DNA of 64,000 nt from Escherichia coli O157:H7. GTDB taxonomy: Bacteria > Pseudomonadota > Gammaproteobacteria > Enterobacterales > Enterobacteriaceae. Positions 45,201 to 48,200 of this stretch are shown one piece after another. The stretch is from NCBI RefSeq assembly GCF_013167455.1, contig NZ_CP038328.1, one strand, 5' to 3'. The stretch's first letter is position 1. Every line of letters starts with the position of its first letter. A program made the position numbers.

Positions 45201-48200
45201 TACATTCATGAGATTACCAGAAAAAAGCCGGCCGTTGGGCCGGCTCTTTTACTTACATCACCAGACGGCGAATGTCAGACAGCGTGTTGTTAATGATGGT
45301 AATGAAACGGGCACCATCAGCACCGTCGATCACGCGGTGGTCGAAGGAGAGAGAAATCGGCAGCATCAGACGCGGCACGAACTCTTTACCATTCCACACC
45401 GGCTCCATCGCGGACTTGGAAACGCCGAGGATAGCCACTTCCGGCGCGTTCACAATCGGCGCGAAGTGGGTAGTACCCAGGCCGCCGATGCTGGAGATGG
45501 TGAAGCAACCGCCCTGCATTTCGCCCGCAGTCAGCTTACCGTCACGCGCTTTCTTAGAAATAGTCATCAGCTCGCGAGACAGTTCGATGATGCCTTTCTT
45601 GTTGACGTCTTTGAATACCGGAACAACCAGACCGTTCGGGGTATCCACCGCCACACCGATGTTGATGTATTTCTTCAGGGTCAGACGCTGACCGTCTTCC
45701 GACAGCGAACTGTTGAAGCGAGGCATCTGCTCAAGCGCTGCAGCAACGGCTTTCATGATGAAGACAACCGGGGTGATCTTCACATCCAGCTTACGTTTCG
45801 CCGCTTCTTCGTTCTGCTGTTTACGGAACGCTTCCAGCTCGGTGATATCGGTTTTGTCGAAGTGAGTAACATGCGGGATCATCACCCAGTTACGGCTCAG
45901 GTTCGCACCAGAAATTTTCTGGATACGGCCCAGTTCCACTTCTTCGATTTCACCAAACTTGCTGAAGTCCACCTTCGGCCACGGCAGCATGCCAGGGATA
46001 CCACCGCCAGTCGCTGCCGGAGCTGCTTCTGCACGTTTGATAGCTTCTTTCACGTAAGCCTGAACGTCTTCGCGCAGGATACGACCTTTACGGCCAGTGC
46101 CCTTCACTTTCGCAAGGTTAACGCCAAACTCGCGTGCCAGACGGCGGATCAGCGGGGTCGCGTGAACGTAAGCGTCATTTTCAGCAAATTCAGATTTGCC
46201 TTCCGCTTTCGCAGCCGGTGCTGCTGCCGGGGCTTCAGCTTTTGCTGCCGGAGCCGGCGCTGCTGCTTCCTGTTTCGCAGGAGCTGCCGCAGGCGCTGCG
46301 CCTTCAACTTCGAAGATCATAATCAGCGAGCCAGTTTTCACTTTATCGCCAACGTTGACTTTCAGTTCCTTCACGACGCCTGCAAACGGAGCCGGAACTT
46401 CCATAGAAGCTTTATCGCCTTCTACGGTAATCAGTGACTGTTCAGCGGCAACTTTGTCGCCCACTTTCACCATCACTTCGGTCACTTCAACTTCGTCACC
46501 GCCGATATCCGGAACGTTAACTTCTTTCACGCCAGCCGCTGGTGCAGGGGCCGCTGCCGGAGCCGCTTCCTGTTTAGCCGCCGGAGCTGCCGCGCCTGCT
46601 TCACCCGCCACTTCGAAGACCATAATCAGCGAGCCGGTAGACACTTTGTCGCCGGTGTTCACTTTGATTTCTTTCACGGTGCCTGCAAACGGAGCCGGAA
46701 CTTCCATAGAAGCTTTATCGCCTTCTACGGTGATCAGCGACTGCTCAGCTTCAACTTTGTCGCCAACTTTCACCAGGATTTCGGTCACTTCAACTTCGTC
46801 GCTGCCGATATCCGGAACGTTAACGTCTTTTGCCGCGGCAGCCTCGGGGACTGCTGCCGGAGCTGCTTCTTTCTTCTCTTCTGCCTGAGCAGGTGCAGCG
46901 TCTGCTGCACCGTCGGCGGAATCGAAAATCATAATCAGTGCGCCGGTCTGAGTTTTATCGCCAACAGAGACTTTGATCTCTTTAACGATACCCGCCTGCG
47001 GAGACGGAACTTCCATAGAAGCTTTGTCGCCTTCTACGGTGATCAGCGACTGTTCGGCTTCAACTTTGTCGCCCACTTTGACCAGGATCTCGGTGATTTC
47101 AACTTCATCAGCCCCGATGTCCGGTACTTTGATTTCGATAGCCATTATTCTTTTACCTCTTACGCCAGACGCGGGTTAACTTTATCTGCATCGATGTTGA
47201 ATTTGGCGATTGCGTCAGCAACCACTTTCTTATCGATTTCGCCACGTTTAGCCAGTTCGCCCAGCGCCGCAACCACGACATAAGAAGCATCAACTTCGAA
47301 GTGGTGACGCAGGTTCTCACGGCTGTCGGAACGACCGAAGCCATCAGTACCCAGTACGCGGTAGTCGTCAGCCGGTACGTAAGTACGGACCTGCTCAGCG
47401 AACAGTTTCATATAGTCGGTAGATGCCACAGCCGGAGCGTCGTTCATCACCTGAGCGATATACGGAACGCGCGGAGTTTCCAGCGGATGCAGCATGTTCC
47501 AGCGTTCACAATCCTGACCATCACGCGCCAGTTCGGTGAAGGAGGTCACGCTATAAACGTCAGAACCTACGCCGTAATCTTTCGCCAGGATCTCTGCCGC
47601 TTCACGGACGTGACGCAGGATAGAACCGGAGCCCAGCAGCTGAACTTTACCTTTGCTACCTTCAATGGTTTCGAGTTTGTAGATACCTTTACGGATACCT
47701 TCCTCAGCACCTTCCGGCATTGCCGGCATGTGGTAGTTTTCGTTCAGCGTGGTGATGTAGTAGTAAACGTTCTCTTGTTTTTCACCGTACATACGCTCCA
47801 GACCGTCATGCATAATGACAGCAACTTCGTAAGCGTAAGCCGGGTCGTAAGAGATACAGTTCGGAATAGTCAGCGACTGAATGTGGCTGTGACCATCTTC
47901 GTGCTGCAGACCTTCACCGTTCAGGGTGGTACGACCGGAAGTACCGCCGATCAGGAAGCCACGCGCTTGCTGGTCGCCAGCCGCCCAGCACAGATCGCCG
48001 ATACGCTGGAAGCCGAACATCGAGTAATAGATGTAGAACGGAATCATCGGCAGATTGTTGGTGCTGTAAGAGGTCGCCGCTGCCAGCCAGGAACAACCTG
48101 CGCCCAGCTCGTTGATCCCTTCCTGCAGAATCTGACCTTTCTCGTCTTCTTTATAGTAAGCAACCTGCTCGCGGTCCTGCGGGGTGTACTGCTGACCGTT

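What the first reader, a model, noticed from the sequence alone, without database searches (positions are those of the whole stretch)
46200..47145. Triplicated lipoyl domains in aceF create ~300-bp tandem nucleotide repeats
Three near-identical lipoyl domains ([14 protein letters not shown]) with Ala/Pro linkers are visible. Such repeats can recombine to give E2 variants with one or two domains.
Basis: partly seen in the sequence, partly recalled or inferred. Interest (0 to 1): 0.15.

Follow-up and report, generated by a model that had tools for sequence, protein, structure and literature searches.

The report
Three lipoyl-domain repeats in aceF

Summary
aceF (window 45253-47145, minus strand, 630 aa) is 100% identical to O157:H7-type E. 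coli. It starts with three head-to-tail units of 309, 303 and 303 nt (46228-47142). Each unit encodes a ~76-aa lipoyl domain plus an Ala/Pro-rich linker. "Near-identical" is overstated: the domain cores are 74-84% identical in protein and 76-86% in DNA. Only the block around the lipoyl-lysine ([14 protein letters not shown]) is fully conserved, giving exact DNA runs of 21, 26 and 51 nt.

The architecture (3 lipoyl domains, E3-binding domain, catalytic domain), the pdhR-aceE-aceF-lpd context and the curated family scores all confirm textbook E2p.

The recombination idea is supported. Junction probes found in-frame two-domain aceF in 6 of about 5,420 complete E. coli genomes, with joins inside the conserved block and on at least five genetic backgrounds. 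The exact two-domain proteins occur on 106-454 public contigs each. One-domain and four-domain forms appear only in short-read draft or metagenome assemblies, and those also yield scrambled and chimeric aceF, so these forms are unverified.

Across taxa, E2p carries 1-4 lipoyl domains, most often two. A test for gene conversion between the repeats was not significant. Already known; low interest.

The parts
45253..47145 (-). aceF coding sequence (630 aa + stop): dihydrolipoyllysine-residue acetyltransferase, E2p of the pyruvate dehydrogenase complex
   Evidence: ORF list. NCBIfam NF008814 1099 bits and TIGR01348 1033 bits, both above cut-off. 100% nt identity to O157-type E. coli aceF. Full-length match to PDB 7b9k.
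46834..47142 (-). Repeat unit 1 (309 nt; aa 2-104): lipoyl domain 1 core (46915-47142) plus Ala/Pro/Glu-rich linker 1 (46834-46914). Lipoyl-lysine K41 codon at 47023-47025.
   Evidence: One of three Pfam Biotin_lipoyl stretches.
46531..46833 (-). Repeat unit 2 (303 nt; aa 105-205): lipoyl domain 2 core (46606-46833) plus Ala/Pro linker 2 (46531-46605). Lipoyl-lysine K144 codon at 46714-46716.
   Evidence: Pfam Biotin_lipoyl best stretch at aa 107-176.
46228..46530 (-). Repeat unit 3 (303 nt; aa 206-306): lipoyl domain 3 core (46303-46530) plus the first part of linker 3. Lipoyl-lysine K245 codon at 46411-46413.
   Evidence: Matches the solved inner lipoyl domain structures 1qjo and 2k7v at aa 206-284/293.
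46168..46302 (-). Linker 3 (aa 282-326), the longest Ala/Pro/Lys/Glu-rich flexible linker. It contains short 12-nt and 23-nt GC-rich sub-repeats.
   Evidence: Composition: 22 Ala and 6 Pro of 45 residues. TRF 12-nt repeat at 46276-46299. D2 family of 23-nt Ala-codon repeats. GC rises to about 0.61.
46681..46731 (-). 51-nt block in unit 2 that is exactly identical to 46378-46428 in unit 3. It encodes [17 protein letters not shown] and is the interval in which the 2/3 and 3/2 hybrid junctions fall.
   Evidence: Longest common substring. The block is 51 nt in this allele but only 23-32 nt in five other E. coli alleles. Crossover maps.
46378..46428 (-). Partner copy, in unit 3, of the 51-nt exact block.
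46060..46167 (-). Peripheral subunit (E1/E3)-binding domain, aa 327-362.
   Evidence: Pfam E3_binding, 60.3 bits. PDB 4qoy_E and 8oqj.
45259..45951 (-). Catalytic acetyltransferase / core-forming domain, aa 399-629, with the DHRVIDG active-site motif.
   Evidence: Pfam 2-oxoacid_dh, 269.7 bits. PDB 4n72. Motif visible in the translation.
47160..49823 (-). aceE (E1p, 887 aa), immediately upstream in the operon.
   Evidence: ORF. TIGR00759, 1645.8 bits.
43621..45045 (-). lpd (E3, 474 aa), downstream.
   Evidence: ORF. TIGR01350, 501.5 bits.
49984..50748 (-). pdhR, repressor of the operon.
   Evidence: ORF. NF007001, 495.7 bits.

Best explanation
[quoted passage not shown] An old in-frame triplication of a ~100-codon module (lipoyl domain plus flexible Ala/Pro linker) produced three tandem units of 309, 303 and 303 nt. 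Each domain carries one lipoylatable lysine (K41, K144, K245) in a DKA turn. From established knowledge of the complex, the lipoyl-lysine 'swinging arms' carry acetyl groups and reducing equivalents between the E1, E2 and E3 active sites. The DNA copies have diverged to 76-86% identity, with synonymous sites largely randomised between unit 1 and the others. Purifying selection on the lipoyl-lysine turn has kept exact runs of 21-51 nt. I infer that these runs act as substrates for unequal homologous exchange or replication slippage. That yields in-frame deletions (two- or one-domain E2 with a hybrid domain) and the reciprocal duplications (four domains). Shown here: the repeat, the architecture, the family membership, and the existence of hybrid-junction two-domain alleles in complete genomes. 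Inferred: the recombination mechanism itself and the function of the variant enzymes.
For: Repeat anatomy. Architecture and family. Structures of the same protein: (7b9k, 1qjo, 4n72). Identity to E. coli aceF in 5,420 of 5,426 complete genomes. Literature: three lipoyl domains, 73% identical, acting redundantly (PMC8421416); E2 chains have one to three lipoyl domains joined by flexible linkers (PMC10849603; PMC6270654); one domain suffices in vitro (Guest 1985 via PMC5013485); fewer domains lower growth rate and yield (Dave, Guest and Attwood 1995, cited in PMC10579247). Recombinant products: the 2/3-hybrid probe hits 4 complete genomes at 97.4-98.7% with aceF annotated at 1590 nt. The 1/2-hybrid probe hits 2 complete genomes with an intact 1584-nt ORF. 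Junctions map to the conserved block: gene nt ~408-466 for the 2/3 class and ~123-142 for the 1/2 class. The four 2/3 alleles differ by 18-33 SNPs per 2,350 nt of flank, so they are on different backgrounds. Exact two-domain proteins are seen on 182, 106 and 454 contigs.
Against: Nothing contradicts the identification. For the recombination step, short-read assemblers can create the same hybrid joins by collapsing or re-traversing the repeat. P0045 has scrambled domain order, and P0002, P0025 and P0038 are inter-species chimeras from metagenome assemblies. Four-domain and one-domain forms were found only on draft or metagenome contigs and in none of about 5,420 complete genomes. The sequencing technology behind the six complete genomes could not be checked.
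Confidence: 0.96

Rival explanations
1. The domain-number variants seen in public data are assembly artefacts (repeat collapse or extra traversal of a graph cycle through the shared exact block), not real recombinants. On this view the repeat in nature is stably three copies.
For: Scrambled-order and chimeric aceF proteins occur in metagenome assemblies. Four-domain forms are only on SPAdes, MEGAHIT or draft WGS contigs. The one-domain form is only on draft contigs of at most 273 kb. No four- or one-domain junction occurs in about 5,420 complete genomes. An artefact would give exactly the same hybrid sequence as a true crossover.
Against: Six complete circular chromosomes carry two-domain aceF. 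Two related strains share an identical allele (L005 = L006), and that product recurs on 454 contigs, as expected for clonal inheritance. A 300-nt repeat at 76-86% identity with at most 51 nt of exact identity is normally resolved by long reads and by k-mers longer than 51.
Confidence: 0.3
2. The repeats are kept similar by ongoing concerted evolution (gene conversion or repeated domain turnover), rather than by ancient duplication plus purifying selection alone.
For: In every multi-domain E2p representative, domains within one protein are 33-99% identical (53-99% in all but P0156 and P0251) and closer to each other than to any E. coli domain, which score about 24-53% except for the close-relative fragment P0176. 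P0152 has three domains that are 90-99% identical. Domain number varies from 1 to 4 across taxa. Core position 117 of units 2 and 3 is polymorphic in the same column across alleles. Units 2 and 3 share more identical third positions than codon usage predicts: 55 observed against 35 expected.
Against: Within E. coli the test was not significant. Segregating sites are 4.2% in the cores against 3.6% in the catalytic part (Fisher p = 0.6). Coincident polymorphic columns number 5 against 2.8 expected (P about 0.10). Positional orthology is retained between E. coli and Salmonella, visible as domain-specific residues such as SPQAG, VSTG...VAG and VKTG...VEG in the sequences. Unit 1 against units 2 and 3 has third-position identity close to the codon-usage expectation.
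Confidence: 0.35
3. The periodicity comes from something other than a protein-domain repeat: a low-complexity artefact, a mobile or REP-type element, a structured RNA, or a gene on the opposite strand.
For: Two long antisense ORFs overlap the region, 46196-46888 and 45208-46437 on the + strand.
Against: The period is a multiple of 3 and in frame with aceF. Each copy is a full Pfam Biotin_lipoyl domain. The antisense ORFs have no Pfam match and are low-complexity mirror images of Ala-codon runs. No Rfam family reaches its gathering score.
Confidence: 0.01

Closest known systems
E. coli K-12 AceF (UniProt P06959; PDB 7b9k, 1qjo, 4n72)
   Same: Same gene, same length (630 aa), same three lipoyl domains, PSBD and catalytic domain. 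Full-length match to 7b9k.
   Different: 38 nucleotide differences over 1893 nt and 3 amino-acid differences from a K-12-type allele: A99V and A101E in linker 1, V164T in domain 2. The exact unit-2/unit-3 block is 51 nt here against 23 nt in K-12 type.
Engineered one- and two-lipoyl-domain E2p (Guest et al. 1985; 'hybrid lipoyl domain' 1-lip constructs used in NMR work)
   Same: The natural 529-aa, 527-aa and 426-aa forms have the same design: in-frame loss of whole units leaving a hybrid domain. The literature says such enzymes are active (PMC5013485; PMC6270654).
   Different: Those were made in vitro. The ones found here sit in chromosomes of isolates from cow, human and chicken. Their activity and fitness were not tested.
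AceF of the aphid symbiont Serratia symbiotica
   Same: Natural loss of one or two lipoyl domains from a three-domain ancestor (PMC5013485).
   Different: That loss is part of genome reduction in an endosymbiont. Here the variants occur in free-living E. coli.
Other 2-oxoacid dehydrogenase E2 chains (E. coli SucB with one lipoyl domain; two-domain E2p of many proteobacteria; human E2p with two)
   Same: Same modular plan of lipoyl domain(s), PSBD and catalytic core.
   Different: Copy number differs. Among the 150 best 50%-cluster representatives, 44 have one domain, 97 two, 7 three and 1 four.

Membership tests
PDH-complex E2p, long form (NCBIfam NF008814 / TIGR01348) | Whole-protein score above the curated equivalog cut-off | tested here: met
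   NF008814 1099.2 bits (cut-off 722). TIGR01348 1033.3 bits (cut-off 552.1).
PDH-complex E2p, long form (NCBIfam NF008814 / TIGR01348) | Modular architecture: N-terminal lipoyl domain(s), peripheral-subunit-binding domain, C-terminal acyltransferase core | tested here: met
   Pfam finds Biotin_lipoyl x3, E3_binding at aa 327-362 and 2-oxoacid_dh at aa 399-629.
PDH-complex E2p, long form (NCBIfam NF008814 / TIGR01348) | A lipoylatable lysine in a DKA turn in each lipoyl domain | tested here: met
   EGDKAS occurs with K41, K144 and K245. This is sequence evidence only.
PDH-complex E2p, long form (NCBIfam NF008814 / TIGR01348) | The lysines are actually lipoylated and the enzyme is active | not testable with these tools
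   Inferred from identity to the experimentally studied E. coli protein (PMC8421416).
PDH-complex E2p, long form (NCBIfam NF008814 / TIGR01348) | Catalytic DHRxxDG motif in the core domain | tested here: met
   [12 protein letters not shown] is present near the C-terminus of the translation.
PDH-complex E2p, long form (NCBIfam NF008814 / TIGR01348) | Operon context pdhR-aceE-aceF-lpd | tested here: met
   Adjacent same-strand ORFs match PdhR (NF007001), AceE (TIGR00759) and Lpd (TIGR01350).
In-frame tandem domain repeat prone to unequal homologous exchange | Head-to-tail copies with a period that is a multiple of three | tested here: met
   Spacing is 303 and 309 nt.
In-frame tandem domain repeat prone to unequal homologous exchange | Exact identity tracts of about the minimal length for RecA-type recombination (roughly 20-30 nt; my own knowledge, not tested) | tested here: met
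   Exact runs are 26 nt (units 1/2), 21 nt (units 1/3) and 51 nt (units 2/3).
In-frame tandem domain repeat prone to unequal homologous exchange | Recombinant alleles with hybrid-unit junctions exist in natural genomes | tested here: met
   Six complete genomes carry 1590-nt or 1584-nt aceF with 2/3 or 1/2 hybrid domains. Read-level proof is not available.
In-frame tandem domain repeat prone to unequal homologous exchange | The reciprocal duplication product (four units) exists | tested here: inconclusive
   Proteins of 731-733 aa with 3/2 or 2/1 hybrids exist. They occur only on short-read draft or metagenome contigs, and none was found in complete genomes.
Repeats homogenised by gene conversion (concerted evolution) | Excess of shared polymorphism or mosaic tracts between paralogous units within the species | tested here: inconclusive
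   Six alleles give 5 coincident columns against 2.8 expected (P about 0.10), and core diversity is not elevated (p = 0.6).

The most novel reading that the evidence does not exclude
Lipoyl-domain copy number in AceF may be a recurrent, naturally segregating length polymorphism in E. coli. On this reading, two-domain alleles (1-(2/3) and (1/2)-3) have arisen independently on at least five backgrounds by exchange within the conserved lipoyl-lysine block. They persist in clones, including an O157-type lineage whose allele has an unusually long 51-nt exact block. The (1/2)-3 form is systematically mis-annotated as a pseudogene. If real, wild E. coli tolerate, or sometimes favour, a PDH complex with 48 rather than 72 swinging arms, although laboratory work reported that fewer domains reduce growth rate and yield.
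Probability: 0.55. Interest if true: 0.3.

Novelty: already known. Interest (0 to 1): 0.12.

Why it matters
The repeat itself is textbook biochemistry and adds nothing new. It has two modest practical consequences. First, aceF is a locus where short-read and metagenome assemblies produce collapsed, expanded, scrambled or chimeric genes, so length variants there need read-level confirmation. Second, genuine in-frame two-domain alleles appear to exist in complete E. coli genomes. One class is labelled a pseudogene by the standard annotation pipeline although the ORF is intact. If confirmed, these strains are ready-made natural material for an old question: why E. coli keeps three lipoyl domains when one is enough for catalysis.

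Tried and rejected
(1) Four-domain aceF in complete genomes. Probes for the 3/2 and 2/1 duplication junctions found nothing above the wild-type background of 96.0% and 95.0%.

(2) One-domain aceF in complete genomes. The 1/3 probe found nothing above the 93.3% background.

(3) Gene conversion between repeats. The window differs from K-12 three times more densely in the repeat part, 2.97% against 0.98%. With six alleles the effect vanished for the domain cores (p = 0.6), and coincident polymorphic columns were not significant (P about 0.10). Only the linkers are about twice as polymorphic.

(4) Other elements on either strand. No Rfam family reached its gathering score. The antisense ORFs 46196-46888 and 45208-46437 have no Pfam match.

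(5) Literature on natural or evolved aceF domain-number variants in E. coli. Nothing turned up in the searchable library. The Klebsiella mecillinam paper lists aceF frameshift and nonsense mutants, not domain deletions.

(6) Limits. The junction probes cannot detect crossovers inside the Ala/Pro linkers, so the variant counts are lower bounds. The 90% cluster containing the 630-aa protein also contains AceE sequences, a clustering oddity that I ignored.
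Full report
OBSERVATION. The window carries a 1893-nt ORF on the minus strand at 45253-47145 (630 aa). 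Tandem Repeats Finder reports one array at 46310-47124: period 303, 2.7 copies, 80% matches, score 901. The repeat finder gives three in-register 281-nt copies spaced 303 and 309 nt apart, 83% and 70% identical to the reference copy. In the translation the units are aa 2-104, 105-205 and 206-306, which is window 46834-47142, 46531-46833 and 46228-46530. In-register identity of the 228-nt domain cores is 0.86 (units 2/3), 0.76 (units 1/2) and 0.76 (units 1/3). All other in-frame lags within aceF give mean 0.288, sd 0.036 and maximum 0.443. The repeat is therefore real, in frame, and at the stated coordinates.

HOW SIMILAR THE COPIES ARE. 'Near-identical' is too strong. The 76-aa cores are 74-84% identical in protein and 76-86% in DNA. 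Third-codon positions are only 57% identical for unit 1 against the others, and 76% for unit 2 against unit 3. Among codons that encode the same amino acid, units 1/2 and 1/3 share the third base only slightly more often than codon usage predicts (41 against 33, and 39 against 31). Units 2/3 share it clearly more often (55 against 35). The triplication is therefore old, with units 2 and 3 the most recently related or most recently homogenised. The longest exact runs are 26 nt (1/2), 21 nt (1/3) and 51 nt (2/3). All of them lie over the conserved lipoyl-lysine turn. The linkers (aa 78-104, 181-205 and 282-326) are 48-56% Ala with Pro, Glu and Lys, and they raise local GC to about 0.6.

WHAT IT IS. 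Pfam finds three Biotin_lipoyl stretches, an E3_binding domain (aa 327-362) and the 2-oxoacid_dh catalytic domain (aa 399-629). NCBIfam equivalogs NF008814 (1099 bits, cut-off 722) and TIGR01348 (1033 bits, cut-off 552) are passed. The neighbouring same-strand ORFs are AceE, Lpd and PdhR. The DNA is 100% identical to aceF of O157:H7-type E. coli, and 5,420 of 5,426 complete E. coli genomes hold at least 80% of it. The protein matches the full-length E. coli E2p cryo-EM entry 7b9k, the inner lipoyl domain structures 1qjo and 2k7v, and the core structure 4n72. The lipoylatable lysines are K41, K144 and K245. No Rfam family reaches its gathering score in the region, and the long antisense ORFs have no Pfam match. 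This is the textbook three-lipoyl-domain E2p. The literature describes the three domains as 73% identical, functionally redundant, and joined by flexible linkers (PMC8421416; PMC10849603; PMC6270654).

DOES THE REPEAT RECOMBINE? A search of about 5.8 billion proteins ranked 723-738-aa E. coli, Salmonella and Citrobacter AceF proteins above the exact 630-aa match. Their sequences are four-domain forms containing a hybrid domain. P0001 reads 1-(2/1)-2-3, and P0004, P0005, P0014 and P0019 read 1-2-(3/2)-3, with the joins inside the [15 protein letters not shown](APFAG) block. The same list also holds P0045, a 630-aa protein with scrambled domain order. It holds P0002, P0025 and P0038 too, which are inter-species chimeras from metagenome assemblies. 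Assemblers can therefore generate such joins.

To separate the possibilities I built 303-309-nt hybrid-unit probes from the window. I searched them against the complete E. coli genomes.
- Duplication junctions 3/2 and 2/1: nothing above the wild-type background of 96.0% and 95.0%.
- Deletion junction 1/3: nothing above 93.3%.
- Deletion junction 2/3: four genomes at 97.4-98.7% with a single place per record. These are strains C2 and C4 (cow), Rb-50 (human, Japan) and VTB97379v (chicken, South Africa). In each, aceF is annotated as 1590 nt.
- Deletion junction 1/2: two genomes, 01_3327 and 03_3013, at 97.0%. There PGAP calls aceF a pseudogene 'missing N-terminus'. The 1584-nt ORF nonetheless starts with ATG, has no internal stop and encodes two GDKAS motifs.

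Crossovers map to gene nt ~408-466 for the 2/3 class and ~123-142 for the 1/2 class, which is the conserved block. The four 2/3 alleles differ from one another by 18-33 SNPs in 2,350 nt of non-repeat flank. That is as much as K-12 differs from O157, so they sit on different backgrounds. The two 1/2 alleles are identical to each other.

Exact-sequence look-ups extend this. The 529-aa protein of C2, C4 and Rb-50 is on 182 contigs, within a 90% cluster of 305 distinct sequences, nearly all of the 15 listed being 529-530 aa. The 527-aa protein is on 454 contigs. An O157-type 529-aa protein carrying this window's linker-1 residues is on 106 contigs, with flanks 0-1 nt from the window. The predicted 426-aa one-domain 1/3 hybrid is on 38 contigs. 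The four-domain and one-domain forms were found only on short-read draft or metagenome contigs.

My reading is that two-domain alleles are probably real and recurrent, present in 6 of about 5,420 complete genomes (about 0.1%). The one- and four-domain forms remain unverified. All of these counts are lower bounds, because the probes cannot see crossovers inside the linkers.

MECHANISM. Shown: in-frame tandem units, exact tracts of 21-51 nt at the lipoyl-lysine turn, and natural alleles whose only difference is loss of exactly one unit with a hybrid join in that tract. Inferred: unequal RecA-type exchange between sister chromosomes, or replication slippage, within these tracts. My recollection that about 20-30 nt of identity suffices in E. 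coli is background knowledge and was not tested here. Function of the variants is inferred from engineered counterparts. One domain suffices for activity (Guest et al. 1985, cited in PMC5013485). Lowering domain content reduced growth rate and yield (Dave, Guest and Attwood 1995, cited in PMC10579247). That cost would explain why three-domain alleles dominate.

WIDER COMPARISON. Among the 150 best representatives of 50%-identity clusters, lipoyl-domain counts are 1 (44 proteins), 2 (97), 3 (7), 4 (1) and 0 (1). In every protein with three or more domains, the domains are closer to each other than to any E. coli domain. Within-protein identity is 33-99% (53-99% in all but P0156 and P0251), against about 24-53% to E. 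coli domains, leaving aside the close-relative fragment P0176. P0152 has three copies that are 90-99% identical. At depth, therefore, there is domain turnover or homogenisation rather than positional orthology. Between E. coli and Salmonella, positional orthology is still visible in domain-specific residues. Serratia symbiotica has lost one or two domains (PMC5013485).

CONVERSION TEST. The window differs from a K-12-type allele at 38 sites. Of these, 29 lie in nt 1-978 (2.97%) and 9 in the rest (0.98%). There are three amino-acid changes (A99V, A101E, V164T), and core position 117 changes in both units 2 and 3. With six three-domain alleles the effect is not general. Segregating sites are 4.2% in the cores, 8.6% in the linkers and 3.6% in the PSBD plus catalytic part (cores against catalytic, Fisher p = 0.6). 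Coincident polymorphic columns number 5 against 2.8 expected (P about 0.10). Conversion within E. coli is therefore not demonstrated. The window's allele does have the longest exact unit-2/unit-3 block, 51 nt against 23-32 nt in the five others.

VERDICT. The feature is already known and ordinary. The only mildly new points are natural two-domain alleles, a pseudogene mis-call, and aceF as an assembly trap. Interest is low.

Noticed in passing
L005:2498-4081 and L006:2498-4081 (NZ_CP074961.1, NZ_CP074958.1): PGAP annotates an intact, ATG-initiated 1584-nt two-domain aceF as a pseudogene ('incomplete; missing N-terminus'). The identical 527-aa product occurs on 454 public contigs without any protein accession, which suggests a systematic mis-call of an in-frame domain deletion.
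   Followed up: partly
window 46681-46731 and 46378-46428: The O157-type allele in this window has a 51-nt exact match between units 2 and 3. Five other E. coli alleles (K-12 type, CFT073, S12, M19, WP2) have only 23-32 nt. An O157-type two-domain protein is recorded on 106 contigs.
   Followed up: partly
proteins P0045, P0002, P0025, P0038, P0039, P0043: Public assemblies contain aceF products with scrambled domain order, inter-species chimeric lipoyl or PSBD segments, and partial internal duplications (lengths 668, 680, 697 and 707 aa). Most of these come from ENA metagenome assemblies, but P0039 and P0043 carry NCBI/nr or UniRef records labelled E. coli. The repeat is an assembly hazard.
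   Followed up: partly
proteins P0026 and P0040 (Salmonella enterica, contigs of 4.68 and 4.47 Mb): Two Salmonella records on chromosome-sized contigs encode four-lipoyl-domain AceF (725 and 723 aa). P0040 looks like a clean duplication of domain 3 with its join in the linker. P0026 has a shuffled 2a-3b / 3a-2b / 3a-3b arrangement.
   Followed up: no
window 43056-43317 (+), inside ORF 41697-43550: The neighbouring 617-aa DUF3300-type ORF (yacH-like) has its own in-frame tandem repeat: period 96 nt (32 aa), 2.7 copies, 84% matches, encoding ...SASPEQRQ... units.
   Followed up: partly
window 46531-46833 (unit 2) compared with units 1 and 3: Among six E. coli alleles, unit 2 carries 18 of the 29 segregating sites in the domain cores (unit 1 has 4, unit 3 has 7). 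The Ala/Pro linkers are about twice as polymorphic as the rest of the gene. V164T in domain 2 is a three-nucleotide codon change (GTG to ACC).
   Followed up: partly
L001 and L004 compared with L002 and L003, aceF-lpd intergenic region: The aceF-lpd spacer is 324 nt in some strains and 207 nt in others, a 117-nt length polymorphism. It is possibly a REP-type element and was not examined.
   Followed up: no
H40, NZ_CP107281.1 (strain JCL301, laboratory): This laboratory strain retains only the last 96 nt of aceF, next to ampE, consistent with an engineered deletion. It is one of the few complete genomes lacking the gene.
   Followed up: no
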